Position numbers and translations under genes: made by a program | Virus record (IMG/VR): IMGVR_UViG_3300025897_000012 | Coordinates: 15,755-79,754 of that record | Strand: one strand, 5' to 3' | Length of the DNA: 64,000 bases | Origin: a virus | Shown here: one piece after another, positions 56,121 to 61,827 of the stretch | How the letters are laid out: each line of letters starts with the position of its first letter | Position numbering within the stretch: position 1 is the stretch's first letter | Notes under the pieces: generated by a model | The model's database searches: none | What the model saw: the letters and a program-made list of their open reading frames with translations, nothing else | What the model was told of the DNA's origin: nothing

Positions 56121-57131
56121 TTGTTTAAAAAGGCAGCAGTATTCACTGACATTCACCTTGGTTTAAAAGGTAATAGTAAAGTACACAACGACGATTGTGA
56201 AGAATTTGTAGATTGGTACATCGAACAAGCGAAAGCAAACGGTTGTGAAACTGGAATCTTTTGTGGAGATTGGCATCATAACAGAAATTCATTAAACTTA
56301 ACTACAATGGACGCAACTATACGTTCAATGGAAAAATTAGGTTTGGCATTTGAACAGTTTTTCTTTTTTGACGGCAATCACGATTTATATTACAAAGATA
56401 AACGAGATGTTAACTCAACAGCATTTGCTAAACACATTCCAGGTATTACATTTATTGATGAAATTACTACCAAAGACGATGTAACGTTAGTGCCTTGGTT
56501 AGTTGGCGAAGAATGGAAAAAAATTAAAAACATTAAAAGTAAATATATGTTTGGTCATTTTGAACTTCCTAGCTTCTATATGAACGCAATGGTACAAATG
56601 CCTGATACTGGCGAATTACAGGCATCACACTTTGAACATCAAGAGTATGTTTTTAGTGGACACTTTCATAAAAGACAAAAAAAAGGTAAAGTACACTACC
56701 TAGGTAATGCGTTCCCGCACAACTATGCAGATGCATGGGATGACAAACGAGGAATGATGATACTGGATAGAGAAAACAATAAAGAACCAGAGTATCTTGA
56801 TTGGGAAGATTGTCCCAAATATAGAACAACAACTTTAAGTCAGTTGTTAGATCCTAAACAAGACATTATTAAAAGTAAAATGTATCTAAGAGTTACTATT
56901 GATGTTCCTATTAGTTACGAAGAGGCTAGTTTTATTAAAGAAACTTTTATTAATCAGCACAACTGTAGAGAAATTAGTTTGATTCCACAAAAACAAATTG
57001 AAGAAATATCTACTGAGTTAGATATACAACAATTTGAAAGTGTTGATCAAATAGTTGCAGGCGAGATTGCCGCAATTGATAGCGATAACTTTAACAAGAA
57101 AACACTTATGGACATTTATAGCGACCTATGA
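56121..57131 (+). CDS. Recombination endonuclease gp47 (Mre11/SbcD-like)
   Basis: DIH, GD, GNHD, GHFE and SGHFH metallophosphoesterase motifs; TTG start with AGGAG RBS. Confidence 0.93.
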   Translation: MFKKAAVFTDIHLGLKGNSKVHNDDCEEFVDWYIEQAKANGCETGIFCGDWHHNRNSLNLTTMDATIRSMEKLGLAFEQFFFFDGNHDLYYKDKRDVNSTAFAKHIPGITFIDEITTKDDVTLVPWLVGEEWKKIKNIKSKYMFGHFELPSFYMNAMVQMPDTGELQASHFEHQEYVFSGHFHKRQKKGKVHYLGNAFPHNYADAWDDKRGMMILDRENNKEPEYLDWEDCPKYRTTTLSQLLDPKQDIIKSKMYLRVTIDVPISYEEASFIKETFINQHNCREISLIPQKQIEEISTELDIQQFESVDQIVAGEIAAIDSDNFNKKTLMDIYSDL

Positions 57132-58900
57132 TAGAAATTAAAGACCTAACAGTAAAAAACTTTATGAGTGTGGGTAATCAAACTCAAGCAGTTGATTTTA
57201 ACCAACAACAACTAACATTGGTGCTAGGTGAAAACTTAGACCAAGGTGGTGACGATAGCGGATCACGTAATGGTACAGGAAAAACTACTATTATCAATGC
57301 TTTGAGCTATGCATTATACGGTCAAGCACTTACAAACATTAAACGCAACAATTTAATTAATAAAACTAACAGTAAAGGTATGTTAGTTACACTTCATTTT
57401 GAAAAAAATGGTGTAGACTACAGGATCGAACGTGGTAGAGGTCCTAATTTACTTAAATTTTATATAAACAATCAAGAACAAGAGCTAGTTGACGAAAGTC
57501 AAGGTGATAGTCGTAAAACACAAGAGTTTATCAACGACTTATTAGACATGAGTCATGATATGTTCAAACATATTGTTGCACTTAACACATATACTGAGCC
57601 GTTTCTTGCTATGAAGCAAAACGATCAACGTGCAATTATTGAACAGCTATTAGGAATTACTATACTATCTGAAAAGGCAGAGTCTTTAAAAGAACAAATT
57701 AAAAAAACTAAAGAATTAATTACTGAAGAAACTTTAAAGATCGAAGCAATACAAACTGCTAATGAAAAAATAAATGCAACTATTGAAAATCTACAAGGTA
57801 CGCAACGTGCATGGATGTCTAAAAAAGATCAAGATATTAAAAAACTACAAAGTAGCATAGACGAATTAGAGCATGTTGATATTAATATTGAACTTGACTT
57901 ACATGAAAAATTAAGTACATGGAACGAACATAATAATAAAATTATGGCTCTTAAAAAAGAACTAAGCACACTTGAGCCTGCATTAGTACGTGCTGACAAG
58001 ACTGTAGAAAAAGCATCTAAAGATATTGCAGATCTTGATAATGCTACTTGCTATACTTGCGGACAAGCACTACATGATGACAAAAAAGATGAAATTTTAG
58101 ATAGAAAAAATAAAGAACTTGAAGATGCTATAGCATATCAAACCGAAGTAGGTGATAAACTTATTGATGTTTCAAAAGGACTTGAGAATATTGGTGAGAT
58201 TAATGGAAAGCCTACAACATTTTACGATACAGCTAAAGAAGCGTATGAGCATAGACAGAACGTTGATAGCTTAAAACAATCGTTATCTAACAAAGAACAG
58301 GAAATTGATCCTTATCAAACACAAATTGACGAACTAAACAGTAGTGCGGTACAAGAAATTAATTGGGATTCTGTTAATCGATTAGATAACTTTAAAGAAC
58401 ATCAAGAATTCTTATTAAAACTATTAACAAACAAAGATAGTTTTATTCGTAAGAAGATTATTGATCAAAATTTAGCATATTTAAACAATAGACTTACTTA
58501 CTTCTTAGATAAACTAGGATTGCCGCATCAGGTTGTTTTTCAAAACGACTTAACTGTTGAAATTACACAGCTAGGGCAAGATTTAGACTTTGATAATCTA
58601 AGTAGAGGTGAACGTAATAGGCTTATACTTGGTATGAGCTTTGCATTCCGCGATGTATGGGAGAGTTTATATCAAAAAATTAATTTATTATTTATTGATG
58701 AGTTAATTGACAGCGGAATGGATACTGCTGGTGTTGAAGGTTCACTTGCAGTCCTTAAGAAGATGGGGCGTGAGGGTAAGAAAAATGTATATCTTATCTC
58801 TCATAAGGACGAACTTGTTGGTCGTGTTAATCATGTATTAAGAGTTGTAAAAGAAAACGGATTTACTAGCTACGCGAACGACATAGAAATTGTAGAATAG
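57128..58900 (+). CDS. Recombination ATPase gp46 (Rad50/SbcC-like)
   Basis: KNFMSVG, Walker A NGTGKTT, coiled coil with CYTC zinc hook, LSRGE signature, LFIDE, ISH. Confidence 0.95.
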   Translation: MIEIKDLTVKNFMSVGNQTQAVDFNQQQLTLVLGENLDQGGDDSGSRNGTGKTTIINALSYALYGQALTNIKRNNLINKTNSKGMLVTLHFEKNGVDYRIERGRGPNLLKFYINNQEQELVDESQGDSRKTQEFINDLLDMSHDMFKHIVALNTYTEPFLAMKQNDQRAIIEQLLGITILSEKAESLKEQIKKTKELITEETLKIEAIQTANEKINATIENLQGTQRAWMSKKDQDIKKLQSSIDELEHVDINIELDLHEKLSTWNEHNNKIMALKKELSTLEPALVRADKTVEKASKDIADLDNATCYTCGQALHDDKKDEILDRKNKELEDAIAYQTEVGDKLIDVSKGLENIGEINGKPTTFYDTAKEAYEHRQNVDSLKQSLSNKEQEIDPYQTQIDELNSSAVQEINWDSVNRLDNFKEHQEFLLKLLTNKDSFIRKKIIDQNLAYLNNRLTYFLDKLGLPHQVVFQNDLTVEITQLGQDLDFDNLSRGERNRLILGMSFAFRDVWESLYQKINLLFIDELIDSGMDTAGVEGSLAVLKKMGREGKKNVYLISHKDELVGRVNHVLRVVKENGFTSYANDIEIVE

Positions 58901-59115: not shown

Positions 59116-59122
59116 GTAAGTA
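59116..59122 (+). promoter_or_regulatory. Putative late promoter variant GTAAGTA (leaderless) for the GIY-YIG gene
   Basis: GGTAAGTACAGAATG is nearly identical to the gp25 leader GGTAAATACAGTATG. Confidence 0.45.
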
Positions 59123-59126
59123 CAGA

Positions 59127-59576
59127 ATGCAATGGACTTATCAAGGCAAAAAAATAGACAAAATACCAGATGAGTACGAAGGATTTGTTTATCTTATTAC
59201 CAATACTACTACAGGCCAAAAATACATAGGCAAAAAACTAGCAAAATTTAAAACTACTAAACCACCGCTTAAAGGCAAAAAGAATAAAAGGCGAGGAACT
59301 AAAGAAAGCGACTGGCGTGACTACTGGGGTAGCTCGGATAGGCTTAACGCAGACGTTGAAGCACTAGGCTCAGATAAGTTTACAAGAGAAATACTTTATC
59401 TTTGTAAAGGTAGAGGCGAAATGTCCTACATAGAGGCAAGAGAACAGTTTGATAGGCGTGTACTTGAAACTGATGAATACTATAATGGTATTATTAATGT
59501 AAGGGTAGGCGGATCAGACAAACTCAAACAGGCATTGCTAGAACACTCCATTAAGGCAAAACAATACAGCACATAA
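59127..59576 (+). CDS. Stand-alone GIY-YIG endonuclease (T4 EndoII/Seg-like catalytic domain)
   Basis: GFVYLITN…KYIGKK, YWGSS, FTREIL, E, YYNG. Confidence 0.88.
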   Translation: MQWTYQGKKIDKIPDEYEGFVYLITNTTTGQKYIGKKLAKFKTTKPPLKGKKNKRRGTKESDWRDYWGSSDRLNADVEALGSDKFTREILYLCKGRGEMSYIEAREQFDRRVLETDEYYNGIINVRVGGSDKLKQALLEHSIKAKQYST

Positions 59577-59579
59577 GGA

Positions 59580-59940
59580 TAGCGGGCCAGATCAATAATT
59601 CCGCTGTGTAAAGGGTGGCGTGAGAACCACACACGAAACATATTGATTCATACGAACCATAACGATCAATATAGGCTAGTTGCTGTTAGCCAAGAACCAC
59701 AATGTTCATAAAAACTCTTTAGCAATAGGAACGAAGCGAGAGGTATTATGCGGCGTAGCGTATATTCTGTGAATATGCGGTATATCGCATAAGATGTCGA
59801 CGTAGGTTGGGAAAGGTCAGAGCCCATTGAACAGTGAAAATACCTACTTCCGAATCTCGGCTGTGACGAACTCACATGAAGACCAAGATTAGATGGAACC
59901 AGCGAGTAGGTTCCGTCTGACTGAAACAATCTACATGAAG
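59580..59940 (+). ncRNA. Candidate large structured non-coding RNA
   Basis: About 44% GC by hand count of 59581-59940, clearly above the surrounding AT-rich sequence. At least 9 consecutive stem-loops, several with G-U pairs on the + strand. No credible ORF. Confidence 0.6.
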
Positions 59941-59946
59941 CAATTA

Positions 59947-60053
59947 CAATATTACTTCGTAATATTGCTTTAATTCATATCTATTACTTCTATCACAAAC
60001 GAAGTGATATAGTTTGAGCGTAAGCGAAAACAATTTGTTACGAAGTAACAAAT
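59947..60053. other. Cluster of perfect hairpins with GAA triloops in inverted orientation
   Basis: CAATATTAC-TTC-GTAATATTG (59947-59967) and ATTTGTTAC-GAA-GTAACAAAT (60033-60053), plus TATCAC/GTGATA (59991-60009). Confidence 0.7.
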
Positions 60054-60135
60054 CTTAATTGTTCTTATAGACTATCCACATTAGTACTACTGTTAAAACT
60101 AAGAAATAGAATATGGGCGAACACATAGGAGTTAT

Positions 60136-60321
60136 TTAGTGAAGATCAGGATCTCTTCCAAAGCCTGATTTAACATAACTGACTTCGACTGCTTCGTATC
60201 TGAGCTCTAGATGAGGTTGTGTATCTTGTAACGTTAAAATATATTGGTTAGCTTCATCAATTGAATTAACTACATCAATTTCGTTATCAAGATTGTCTAA
60301 TATTTTATATTTGGTGATCAT
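60136..60321 (-). CDS. Small hypothetical protein
   Basis: 61 aa ending GFGRDPDLH; TTAAATA box at 60336-60330. Confidence 0.6.
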   Translation of the reverse strand: MITKYKILDNLDNEIDVVNSIDEANQYILTLQDTQPHLELRYEAVEVSYVKSGFGRDPDLH

Positions 60322-60351
60322 TGAACTATTATTTAAATGTCTACTCGGGAC

Positions 60352-60358
60352 ATAAATA
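60352..60358 (+). promoter_or_regulatory. Late promoter ATAAATA
   Basis: Upstream of the AAGGA RBS and ATG at 60388. Confidence 0.65.
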
Positions 60359-60387
60359 CTACTAGTTAATAGAATTAAGGATTATCC

Positions 60388-61827
60388 ATGCGAGTTCTGG
60401 AAGTTATACAACCAAACAACGATAAACAGCAGTTAAATGAAATAGCTATTACTGGACTTTTGATAACAATAGCTGTTGGAGCTCTTGGTGCAGCAGCTAT
60501 TGAAGCTGGTATTGGATTAGTTAAAAATTGGGCTGACGATTGGGATATCAAAGGATTTAAGCCTACTGGCAATCATATTCCTGATCAAACACAAATTACA
60601 AAAGGTAAACAACGCTTTGTATATAATGCTAAGGAAGGCAAATGGGGCGTACAAGAAAGATCTAGACTAGGTAAATGGAAGTATAAAATGATTCCTGGTG
60701 TAGACGGCGCAAATCCAACTGCTAAAACAGTAGTTATTAGTGCTGAAGATTTAAAACAAGCTATTAAAAATAAAACATTAAGTTTTGGTAACAAAGCGGC
60801 TGTTGTAGACACTATGCAACGACAGTATATGGAAAAACAAATGAAAAGCGGAAAGCTACCCGCTGAAGTAAAAGCAGGCTTTGCTAAATCAGGTAACTTT
60901 CTTGATGATGTAATAAAAAGAGAAGAAGCTGGCGTAAGAAAAGGTGCAAGAGGAGTTTGGAACAGGATTAAAGCTGGAGGCACAAAGATCTTTAGTCGCA
61001 GAGTTTTTCAAGCAATTAATGTTTTTATGCCTGTTGCATTAGTTGTTAATACTGTAAGACTTAAAGCGTGGTATAAAACAAAATTAAACTGGGGCAAAGG
61101 AGATGGTTTAGGTACTAATCCTTTAGATACAGTTGATACGGGCGGAGTAGTAGGATATCCTCACCCATCTGGTGATCCTAATAAAGTCTATGGAAGATCT
61201 GAATACGATCAGGACATGATGAATCTAAGAACAACTACGGTTAACGCGGCAATTGCTTGGATGGCAGCTCAAGGTGTTAATGTTTTAGCAAGTGGAATAT
61301 TTTGGATATATGCACAACGCAAAGGTAAAATTATAGATAGAACACAAGATGGAAAAGTAATCTCCTTTTTAAAAAGATGGAATCCTTTAAAGCTCTTAAA
61401 AATGCCTGGAAAACTATTGAAGCTAGGAGCTGCTGGAGTTTCAGCAGGTTTAGTATACTCAGCGTTTGATAGAGCCTTTGCAGAAAAACTAGCTAATGCA
61501 ATGGCTGATTATATATTTAAATACGATGTGTTTTCACAAAAATATTCAACTGCTGAAGATATTACAGAGCATATGATAAAAGCATTAGGCGGCTCTGGAT
61601 ACGAACAGGCAATGGCCCAAATTGGTCTAGGAACAACAGGCGGTGACAAGTTAGCAAATCAAGACGGTAAGTTAGGTGGAGAGGTTAATCCTTTAGATAA
61701 TACTAGTCCAAGTGGAGAGGTTAATCCTTTAGATAATACTAGTCCAAGTAGCAGTAGCAGTGGTGGTGCTGCTTTAGATGCAATTAATAATCTTAGTAAG
61801 GATGATGATTTCTGGAAAATTAAATAA
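60388..61827 (+). CDS. Probable internal virion/ejection protein with hydrophobic helices
   Basis: Late promoter; MRVLEVI…QLNE N-terminus resembling prohead-protease-processed leaders; several hydrophobic A/G-rich segments. Confidence 0.55.
   Translation: MRVLEVIQPNNDKQQLNEIAITGLLITIAVGALGAAAIEAGIGLVKNWADDWDIKGFKPTGNHIPDQTQITKGKQRFVYNAKEGKWGVQERSRLGKWKYKMIPGVDGANPTAKTVVISAEDLKQAIKNKTLSFGNKAAVVDTMQRQYMEKQMKSGKLPAEVKAGFAKSGNFLDDVIKREEAGVRKGARGVWNRIKAGGTKIFSRRVFQAINVFMPVALVVNTVRLKAWYKTKLNWGKGDGLGTNPLDTVDTGGVVGYPHPSGDPNKVYGRSEYDQDMMNLRTTTVNAAIAWMAAQGVNVLASGIFWIYAQRKGKIIDRTQDGKVISFLKRWNPLKLLKMPGKLLKLGAAGVSAGLVYSAFDRAFAEKLANAMADYIFKYDVFSQKYSTAEDITEHMIKALGGSGYEQAMAQIGLGTTGGDKLANQDGKLGGEVNPLDNTSPSGEVNPLDNTSPSSSSSGGAALDAINNLSKDDDFWKIK
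61676..61749 (+). repeat. Perfect 36-nt tandem duplication (in frame, GEVNPLDNTSPS x2)
   Basis: GTGGAGAGGTTAATCCTTTAGATAATACTAGTCCAA at 61676-61711 and 61712-61747. Confidence 0.95.

What the first reader, a model, noticed from the sequence alone, without database searches (positions are those of the whole stretch)
59116..59940. Stand-alone GIY-YIG nuclease immediately followed by a ~360-nt highly structured RNA: candidate nuclease-ncRNA system
Seen in sequence: just after the GIY-YIG stop (59576) begins a GC-enriched block (about 44%) made almost entirely of stems. These include AGCGG/CCGCT (59581-59605); GTGT+GTGG/CCAC+ACAC (59606-59634); ATATTGAT/ATCAATAT (59640-59672); GGCTAG/TTAGCC (59674-59691); TTATGCG…CGCATAA enclosing CGTATATTC/GAATATGCG (59746-59792); GTAGGT/ACCTAC enclosing TGGG/CCCA (59802-59847); CCGA/TCGG (59850-59860); TGTGA/TCACA (59862-59876); and AGATGGAACC/GGTTCCGTCT (59891-59918). 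G-U pairs favour the + strand. The nuclease gene has a late-promoter-like leaderless start and there is no terminator between ORF and RNA. Known: compact nucleases are paired with large flanking RNAs in IscB/HEARO and TnpB systems, and phages carry large orphan RNAs such as GOLLD and ROOL. However, T4 EndoII-type GIY-YIGs of this size work without RNA. Inference: this is an unclassified large ncRNA, possibly forming an RNP with the nuclease (which lacks a separate DNA-binding domain), or an RNA acting at an origin.
Basis: partly seen in the sequence, partly recalled or inferred. Interest (0 to 1): 0.88.

Follow-up and report, generated by a model that had tools for sequence, protein, structure and literature searches.

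The report
Twin-box structured RNA behind phage nuclease
The gene-free stretch behind a small nuclease gene of this uncultured marine giant T4-like phage encodes a real, knotted RNA of about 480 bases that carries the same short word twice, always changed in step; nothing indicates that it guides the nuclease, and its function is unknown.

Summary
Window 59571-60055 (+ strand) is a structured non-coding RNA of about 480 nt, not 360. On 80 relatives, 87.9% of cells pair against 34-41% in slid controls, and 61 pairs show compensatory changes. A covarying long-range helix crosses another helix, so the fold is pseudoknotted.

Two 11-nt direct repeats (59871-81, 59930-40) flank hairpin 59891-59918. 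Their 7-nt cores are identical in 149 of 154 distinct relatives, although 18 different words occur. No complementary partner was found in cis.

No Rfam family matches the window. In a sister clade, the Rfam orphan motif Polynucleobacter-1 (RF01718) sits at the same place behind the orthologous nuclease gene and is followed by the same twin-box core. The window RNA is therefore a divergent marine branch of a partly catalogued family.

The nuclease-RNP idea is not supported:
- The adjacency sits inside a fully conserved gp47-gp46-nuclease-RNA synteny.
- The RNA occurs without the nuclease (L115), and the nuclease without the RNA (Melnitz).
- Some relatives carry a promoter or an extra gene between the two.

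This scan has already found the family on other genomes, where follow-up notes call it the twin-box RNA. Function is unknown. My best guess is two identical docking sites for one sequence-reading partner.

The parts
59127..59576 (+). SegE-type GIY-YIG nuclease gene (149 aa), the RNA's habitual upstream neighbour
   Evidence: Pfam PF19835 E 2.7e-35. phrog_447, a 148-position profile, E 1.9e-39, so 149 aa is the family's normal length. 808 phage records hold relatives.
59571..60055 (+). Whole structured RNA (twin-box RNA, marine branch)
   Evidence: Conserved at 70-95% in relatives over this span. Pair statistics. A conserved 5' word that contains the nuclease stop codon is kept even where no nuclease gene precedes it (L115).
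59575..59695 (+). 5' domain: four hairpins (59581-605, 59606-34, 59640-72, 59674-91). The third has a length-variable tip.
   Evidence: Model R2 finds it in branch relatives and in L115, but not in RF01718-bearing loci.
59700..59708 (+). 5' strand of the long-range helix; pairs with 59828-59836
   Evidence: MI/APC top pairs 59705-59831 (UA 61, CG 22) and 59706-59830 (AU 57, UA 24). The 4-pair core is 97.9% paired and every pair has double changes.
59715..59742 (+). Hairpin with a conserved 12-nt loop
   Evidence: Five of seven pairs have double changes. This is the only 5' part that model R2 finds in loci L279 and L237.
59746..59792 (+). Hypervariable hairpin: 8 to over 100 nt in relatives, short forms end in GNRA loops
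   Evidence: The base pairs covary (UA 36, CG 27, AU 12). RNA-library contigs carry 8-nt short forms here (table 5c).
59793..59847 (+). Invariant junction (59793-801), then helix 59802-07/59842-47 enclosing hairpin 59808-26 with its invariant 11-nt loop and the 3' strand of the long-range helix (59828-36). Together these form a pseudoknot.
   Evidence: The long-range helix crosses this helix.
59815..59818 (+). Possible second pseudoknot: loop bases pair with 59919-59922
   Evidence: 98.4% paired. Only one-sided changes occur (G.U 63 to G-C 17; C-G 76 to U.G 4), plus 5 mismatches. There is no double change, so it is unproven.
59871..59881 (+). Twin box 1
   Evidence: Changes in step with box 2.
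59891..59918 (+). 10-bp hairpin between the boxes
   Evidence: 96.9% paired. A-U to G.U and U.G to C-G changes occur on one side only, which fits + strand RNA.
59930..59940 (+). Twin box 2
   Evidence: Its 7-nt core is identical to box 1 in 149 of 154 distinct relatives, with 18 different words. In L115 the word is quite different but again occurs twice.
59947..60053 (+). 3' hairpins: 59947-67, 59986-60005, 60012-31 (tandem G.A inside, GNNA loop), 60033-53 (terminal)
   Evidence: 9 of 9, 1 of 5, 6 of 8 and 8 of 8 pairs have double changes respectively.
60136..60321 (-). Convergent 61-aa ORF that bounds the RNA locus; not part of the RNA
   Evidence: Found at 37-80% identity in about 25 relatives. 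Other relatives have other genes here.

Best explanation
Window 59571-60055 is a gene for a stand-alone structured RNA of about 480 nt, read from the + strand. In this phage it is made by read-through from the gp47-gp46-nuclease operon. Some relatives give it a promoter of its own.

The RNA folds into about 15 helices with at least one pseudoknot. It belongs to a family found in aquatic giant T4-like phages. The freshwater branch of that family starts with the Rfam orphan motif Polynucleobacter-1.

Inferred mechanism: the RNA acts in trans. A rigid, highly conserved core holds out two identical single-stranded 7-8-nt words on either side of a hairpin. These would be two equivalent docking sites for one sequence-reading partner, either a dimeric protein or two copies of one RNA loop. 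Both words must therefore change together.

The neighbouring GIY-YIG nuclease is a syntenic neighbour, not an RNA-guided partner.

Shown: the RNA fold, the strand, the family, the in-step boxes, and the separability of RNA and nuclease.
Inferred: trans action and the docking-site role (about 35% likely).
For: Fold:
- 87.9% of 7977 cells are paired, against 34-41% when partners are slid.
- 61 pairs have double changes, and the covariation score is 0.257 against 0.116 in shuffles (0 of 500 reach it).
- The long-range helix with three covarying sequence types crosses helix 59802-07/59842-47.

Strand: 708 G.U cells on the + strand against 223 if read on the - strand. The hairpin 59891-918 changes only to G.U or C-G.

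In-step boxes:
- Four positions show identical changes in the first alignment.
- 149 of 154 stretches have identical boxes, with 18 different words, using anchors that do not depend on the boxes.
- 61 of 68 sister-clade loci show the signature, against 0 in upstream and reverse-complement controls.
- L115 has a quite different word, again twice.

No cis partner for the boxes.

Family:
- RF01718 scores 79-119 bits directly behind the orthologous nuclease gene in 13 of 20 sister-clade loci.
- Those loci match my 3' core model at the expected place, E 7.5e-5 to 5e-4.

Independence from the nuclease:
- L115 has the RNA but no nuclease.
- Melnitz has the nuclease but no RNA.
- Some relatives have a promoter or a gene inserted between them.

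Not cis-regulatory: downstream genes differ among relatives and can lie on the other strand.

Presence in RNA libraries: contigs of four marine RNA libraries from four studies cover 59127-60048, with none laid from 60049 to 60800 and little laid before 59127. One 590-nt contig comes from a 4.6-Mb 454 cDNA run.
Against: No partner has been identified, and nothing shows that the boxes are single-stranded in vivo. The first two bases of each box can pair with a conserved UG about 10 nt upstream.

The RNA-library data are assembled contigs, not reads. They cannot show ends, strand or level, and DNA carry-over is possible.

The strict adjacency to the nuclease gene holds in more than 110 loci, down to 48% protein identity. 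It is compatible with, though not evidence for, a functional link.

The very high conservation of junctions would also fit a ribozyme.
Confidence: 0.45

Rival explanations
1. Processing cassette. The two boxes are identical cleavage sites for one sequence-specific endoribonuclease or for the RNA's own catalytic core. Cleavage would release the hairpin RNA of about 59 nt between them, as ToxN cuts the ToxI repeats.
For: Identical words flank a conserved hairpin unit of 49-68 nt. The core junctions are invariant over tens of bases, as in ribozymes. A nuclease gene is next door.
Against: GIY-YIG enzymes are known as DNases (my own knowledge). No internal guide complementary to the boxes was found. 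RNA-library contigs run through both boxes (records 4 and 13), although contigs cannot exclude cleavage.
Confidence: 0.15
2. Ribozyme or self-assembling ornate RNA of the GOLLD/ROOL kind. The conserved palindromic words (59796-59801, the loop of the first hairpin, the centre of the boxes) would mediate contacts between copies.
For: Size, pseudoknot, GNRA-capped variable peripheral hairpins, invariant junctions and phage origin.
Against: No Rfam match to GOLLD, ROOL, RNase P, introns or other large RNAs, even at E up to 10. Box-to-box pairing fails for several observed words (reasoned from the words). No tool was available here to test assembly.
Confidence: 0.15
3. Copy-choice template. A polymerase copying the RNA jumps between the identical boxes, as the DRT2 reverse transcriptase jumps on its ncRNA or coronavirus polymerases jump at TRS words. 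This would give repeats or deletions of the 59-nt unit. Alternatively the RNA is a decoy for such a host enzyme.
For: Selection for identity of two direct words that flank a hairpin is what template jumping requires.
Against: No reverse transcriptase (PF00078) was found in five large relatives, including a 354.7-kb genome rated 100% complete. Unit length shows no mod-3 bias, and concatemers are not open in any consistent frame.
Confidence: 0.08
4. Nuclease-RNA particle. The RNA binds the domain-poor GIY-YIG protein and supplies target recognition or regulation.
For: The nuclease gene lies 150-570 nt upstream of the RNA core in every relative with enough upstream DNA except L115, with protein identity from 93% down to 48%. 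No terminator lies between them in the window. One cDNA contig bridges both.
Against: The whole neighbourhood is syntenic. The RNA occurs without the nuclease in L115. The nuclease occurs without the RNA in Melnitz, and its family is spread over 808 phage records, of which only Melnitz was tested for the RNA. Promoter or gene insertions lie between them. There is no single-stranded variable guide. 149 aa is the normal length of this protein family.
Confidence: 0.07
5. A DNA-level element: a replication origin, or the conserved homing target of a Seg-type endonuclease, as T4 SegB cuts within the tRNA gene cluster.
For: Seg genes sit beside conserved RNA genes in T4 (PMC2330249, abstract as listed). 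Invariant 30-36-bp blocks would make good nuclease targets. Many metagenome contigs end inside this locus.
Against: Compensatory changes, G.U-only changes and GNRA loops show selection on RNA. The nuclease gene behaves as a core gene of the lineage, not as a sporadic mobile one. This reading could be true in addition to the RNA, but it does not explain it.
Confidence: 0.05

Closest known systems
Polynucleobacter-1 RNA motif (Rfam RF01718; Weinberg et al. 2010, PMC2864571)
   Same: In the sister clade it lies in the same place, starting 25-75 nt behind the stop of the orthologous GIY-YIG gene. It is followed by the same twin-box core and 3' hairpins. Its first hairpin and loop start resemble the window's first hairpin by eye.
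   Different: The Rfam model finds nothing in the window, its 79.7-kb record or 44 relatives. My 5' domain model does not find RF01718 loci. RF01718 covers only 141 positions, about a third of the RNA, and was listed as possibly cis-regulatory (PMC2864571, table read). The variable downstream genes here argue against that.
GOLLD and ROOL (large ornate phage-associated RNAs of unknown function)
   Same: Hundreds of nucleotides long, many helices, pseudoknots, phage-borne, function unknown.
   Different: No similarity by Rfam models. Twin in-step boxes are not a described feature of those RNAs (my own knowledge).
IscB/HEARO and TnpB omega RNAs
   Same: A compact nuclease gene lies next to a large structured RNA.
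   Different: The nuclease fold differs (GIY-YIG, not RuvC/HNH). There is no Rfam HEARO match, no single-stranded guide, no transposon ends, and RNA and nuclease are separable.
DRT2 defence ncRNA and coronavirus TRS words (identity-dependent template jumping)
   Same: Two identical short words flank a structured unit, and identity is under selection.
   Different: No reverse transcriptase in these phages. No coding potential in concatemers. The comparison rests on my own knowledge of those systems.
T4 SegB and the T4 tRNA / stable-RNA cluster (PMC2330249)
   Same: A free-standing GIY-YIG gene sits beside conserved RNA genes in a T4-like phage.
   Different: SegB is a full-length, sporadically distributed homing enzyme. 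Here the 149-aa protein is a core gene of the lineage, and the RNA is not a tRNA.

Membership tests
Rfam RF01718 Polynucleobacter-1 | Covariance-model score at or above the gathering cut-off (37 bits) | tested here: not met
   No hit in the window at E up to 10, in the whole record, in 44 relatives' records or in 9 diverse loci. The sister clade scores 79-119 bits.
Rfam RF01718 Polynucleobacter-1 | Same genomic place and the same downstream RNA parts as true members | tested here: met
   RF01718 hits start 25-75 nt behind the orthologous GIY-YIG gene. They are followed by twin boxes in 61 of 68 loci and by weak matches to core model R1.
Twin-box phage RNA (working name in this scan; not a published family) | 3' core: invariant junction, nested hairpin with 11-nt loop, hairpin flanked by two identical 7-nt words | tested here: met
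   The window is the founding row of model R1. Relatives score 74-156 bits. The boxes at 59871-81 and 59930-40 are identical over 9 of 11 bases.
Twin-box phage RNA (working name in this scan; not a published family) | Pseudoknot formed by a long-range helix with covariation | tested here: met
   59700-08 with 59828-36.
IscB/TnpB-type omega RNA (HEARO, RF02033) | Rfam match; RuvC/HNH nuclease; single-stranded variable guide at one end | tested here: not met
   No Rfam hit. The nuclease is GIY-YIG. The variable segment 59746-92 is a paired hairpin.
tmRNA (including two-piece forms known from related marine myophages, PMC9004378) | tRNA-like domain and a conserved tag reading frame | tested here: not met
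   ARAGORN finds none. No Rfam tmRNA hit. Candidate short frames are not conserved in frame or in peptide.
Group I intron carrying a GIY-YIG gene | Intron core match and flanking exons of one interrupted gene | tested here: not met
   No Intron_gpI hit at E up to 10. gp46 ends with its own stop, and downstream genes vary.
GIY-YIG nuclease, SegE-type domain (PF19835; phrog_447) | Profile match over the catalytic domain | tested here: met
   PF19835 at 121.7 bits, positions 1-123 of 123. phrog_447 at 135.9 bits.
Mobile Seg-type homing endonuclease | Sporadic presence among close relatives and a C-terminal DNA-binding domain | tested here: not met
   Present in every relative with enough upstream DNA, diverging in parallel with gp46/gp47. 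The domain fills 123 of 149 aa.
DRT2-like template-jumping ncRNA | A cognate reverse transcriptase | tested here: not met
   PF00078 is absent from five large relatives, one of them rated 100% complete.

The most novel reading that the evidence does not exclude
The twin boxes are the two ends of a unit that is copied, excised or circularised. The RNA would be either a new ribozyme that cuts and joins at two identical sites, or a template or decoy on which a polymerase jumps between identical words. Either would be a new kind of phage RNA machine, possibly aimed at a host system.
Probability: 0.12. Interest if true: 0.9.

Novelty: new variant of a known kind. Interest (0 to 1): 0.72.

Why it matters
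Large, highly conserved RNAs of unknown function are rare, and they have repeatedly turned out to be new machines.

- This RNA is common.
- It belongs to giant T4-like phages of about 355 kb from sea and lake water.
- It shows a rare evolutionary signature: two short words kept identical through at least 18 different spellings. That points to a specific, testable molecular partner.
- It also shows that the orphan Rfam motif Polynucleobacter-1, barely mentioned since 2010, is only the first third of a much larger phage RNA.
- Finally, it removes a tempting but unsupported 'RNA-guided GIY-YIG nuclease' reading.

Tried and rejected
- Rfam at gathering scores and at E up to 10 on the window and on 12 relatives gave only chance hits.
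- tmRNA, prompted by the Melnitz paper PMC9004378: no ARAGORN or Rfam hit and no conserved tag frame.
- RNase P-like and group I-like resemblances seen by eye in 59808-59826 have no model support.
- A mini-ORF starting at box 1: the frame to the conserved stop splits 40/32/26 across the three phases.
- Coding concatemers of the unit: no mod-3 bias and no consistent open frame.
- A cis partner for the boxes: no exact or one-mismatch complement on the + strand in or near the RNA in the window. No third covarying column. Sites complementary at 7 of 7 positions with G.U allowed occur in only 36 of 93 sequences, in branch-specific inserts. No word-tracking complement within the flanking kilobases of 39 minor-word loci.
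- Box-to-box pairing fails for several observed words.
- blastn and megablast against 50,697 phage records found no match.
- Core model R1 on the Phosso, PA5oct and Melnitz genomes found none.
- The Phosso 146-aa ORF behind gp46 is not a GIY-YIG homologue.
- Reverse transcriptase search: none.
- PDB sequence search with the nuclease found nothing useful.
- Laid RNA-library contigs give no ends, strand or level. Stretches without cover (60049-60800) are no finding.
- RNAalifold on the raw MAFFT alignment gave partly spurious long-range pairs, so I replaced it with hand-built helices and tested those.

Full report
**What is there**

The window is a fragment of an uncultured viral contig of 79.7 kb, rated 22% complete. 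Around the finding the gene order is:
- gp47-like 56121-57131
- gp46-like 57128-58900
- a 65-aa ORF
- a 149-aa GIY-YIG gene at 59127-59576
- 559 bases without an ORF
- a convergent 61-aa ORF

The GIY-YIG protein matches the SegE-type domain (PF19835, E 2.7e-35). It also matches phrog_447, a family whose profile is 148 positions long. It is therefore a full-length member of a family of small proteins, not a truncated homing enzyme.

**Checking the observation**

G+C is raised to 0.42-0.435. The + strand folds better than shuffles (z -2.8), while the - strand does not (z -1.3). That alone would be weak, so I collected relatives.

A protein-seeded scan of IMG/VR gave 80 loci out of at least 599. 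A DNA-pattern scan of the RNA core gave at least 119 more. The non-coding stretch is conserved at 70-95% from the nuclease stop to about 60055. The RNA is therefore about 480 nt, not 360.

On an alignment of 80 sequences that are less than 93% identical, I tested 108 hand-assigned pairs in 20 helices:
- 87.9% of cells pair, against 34-41% when partners are slid by 1-3 columns.
- 61 pairs have changes on both sides.
- The covariation score is 0.257 against 0.116 in shuffles (0 of 500 reach it).

G.U cells outnumber the A.C cells that would be G.U on the other strand by 708 to 223. The 10-bp hairpin 59891-59918 changes only towards G.U or C-G. The RNA is therefore read from the + strand.

**Anatomy**

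- A mutual-information scan found a long-range helix, 59700-08 with 59828-36. It occurs in three covarying sequence types. It crosses helix 59802-07/59842-47, so the fold is pseudoknotted.
- A second pseudoknot (59815-18 with 59919-22) is consistent with the data but rests on one-sided changes only.
- Hairpin 59746-92 is hypervariable. It runs from 8-nt GNRA-capped stubs to more than 100 nt.
- The tip of the third hairpin is also replaceable.
- Junctions 59793-59829 and 59908-59939 are almost invariant.

**The strange part: twin boxes**

The 11-nt words at 59871-81 (CTCACATGAAG) and 59930-40 (TCTACATGAAG) flank the 10-bp hairpin. Across relatives they change often, and they change in the same way. 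Examples of the 7-nt core are ACGTGAA, ACATAAT and GCATGAA, each present in both boxes.

- With anchors that do not use the boxes, 149 of 154 distinct stretches have identical 7-nt cores. There are 18 different words.
- In the sister clade, 61 of 68 loci show the signature, against 0 in two controls.
- In the most distant homologue, L115, the word is quite different yet again occurs twice.
- The sixth base is always A, and the three before it are mostly ATG, ATA or GTG.

Readings I tested and rejected:
- They are not pairing partners of each other, because several observed words cannot pair.
- There is no third covarying strand in cis.
- There is no conserved mini-ORF.
- The unit has no coding periodicity.

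Identity of two direct words means that one reader sees both. I cannot decide between these by computation. I rank the docking-site reading first.

**Relation to the nuclease**

In every locus with enough upstream DNA except one, the GIY-YIG gene precedes the RNA, with protein identity from 93% down to 48%. But gp47, gp46 and a downstream baseplate-hub gene are conserved in place as well. This is one lineage with fixed gene order, so adjacency proves nothing.

Against a functional pair:
- L115 carries the RNA (85.6 bits with core model R1, 64.2 bits with 5' domain model R2). It has no GIY-YIG, gp46 or gp47, and lies next to a terminase gene.
- Phage Melnitz has the closest cultured nuclease (70% identity) in another context and no such RNA.
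- Five relatives have an insert of about 100 nt with a perfect TTGACA-17-TATACT promoter between nuclease and RNA, and others have a whole gene there.
- No part of the RNA looks like a single-stranded guide.

**Expression**

Contigs of four marine RNA libraries from four studies cover 59127-60048. None was laid from 60049 to 60800, and little before 59127. One is a 590-nt contig from a 4.6-Mb 454 cDNA run that bridges the nuclease 3' end and the RNA. These are contigs, so this is only a hint of transcription and co-transcription.

**Comparison with the known**

Rfam 15 has no match in the window. Earlier notes of this scan said that freshwater relatives begin with Rfam RF01718, Polynucleobacter-1. 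I tested this.
- RF01718 is absent from the window's record and from 44 relatives.
- In a sister clade, fetched with the most divergent nuclease, it scores 79-119 bits in 13 of 20 loci, directly behind the nuclease gene.
- Those loci have twin boxes and match my core model weakly at the right place (E 7.5e-5 to 5e-4).
- My 5' domain model does not find them.

The 3' core is therefore shared. The 5' domain is either replaced or diverged beyond detection. The library holds only the 2010 paper for this motif.

tmRNA, group I intron, HEARO, GOLLD and ROOL are excluded by models and anatomy.

**Verdict**

This is a real, large, pseudoknotted phage RNA. It is a divergent marine branch of a partly catalogued family, and the same scan has already found that family on other genomes. 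Its function is unknown, and it is very probably not the nuclease's guide. The twin in-step boxes are the feature worth an experiment.

Noticed in passing
59746-59792, and loci L007-L061: 27 of 80 related metagenome contigs end within 340 nt behind the nuclease stop, many at +139 to +147. That is just before the hypervariable hairpin. This locus seems to break assemblies, probably because neighbouring conserved blocks join many variant inserts.
   Followed up: partly
L041, L044, L055, L076, L077 (first 100 nt behind the nuclease gene); L063, L151: Some relatives carry an insert of about 100 nt with a perfect sigma-70-type promoter between the nuclease gene and the RNA. Two others have a further gene there.
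   Followed up: partly
L115:6698-7041: A distant copy of the RNA lies in a different kind of phage contig. It sits after a rho-independent terminator and before a terminase large-subunit gene, with no T4-like neighbours.
   Followed up: partly
L204, L205, L206: The only three matches to the RNA's 5' word among 185,579 species genomes are contigs binned into Bacteroidota MAGs (Crocinitomicaceae, Flaviramulus, Flavobacteriales). L204 holds a complete RNA. This is either a host hint or mis-binned phage DNA.
   Followed up: no
L099:3914-4138 and its subclade (L084, L107, L134, L162, L163, L199, L233): The tip of the third hairpin is replaced by an insert of about 60 nt. In L099 and L163 (of the rows seen) it contains a T-loop-like word, as in tRNA T arms, and across the subclade a motif also seen in Polynucleobacter-1.
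   Followed up: no
window 57128-58900; relatives L247, L166: The nearest cultured relatives of gp46 are jumbo phages (Phosso, PA5oct, Atu_ph07, 44-49%). One relative's contig of 354,680 bp is rated 100% complete. This lineage is therefore a giant T4-like phage group without a cultured member.
   Followed up: partly
downstream of the RNA in most relatives (alignment columns after 60055): A T4 late-promoter-like ATAAATA word precedes the next + strand gene in many relatives. The window lacks it and has a convergent 61-aa ORF instead.
   Followed up: no
59862-63 and 59922-23: Each box is preceded at about 10 nt by a conserved CTG, so the repeat may be longer than the boxes: CTG, 5-9 variable bases, three pyrimidines, then the word.
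   Followed up: partly
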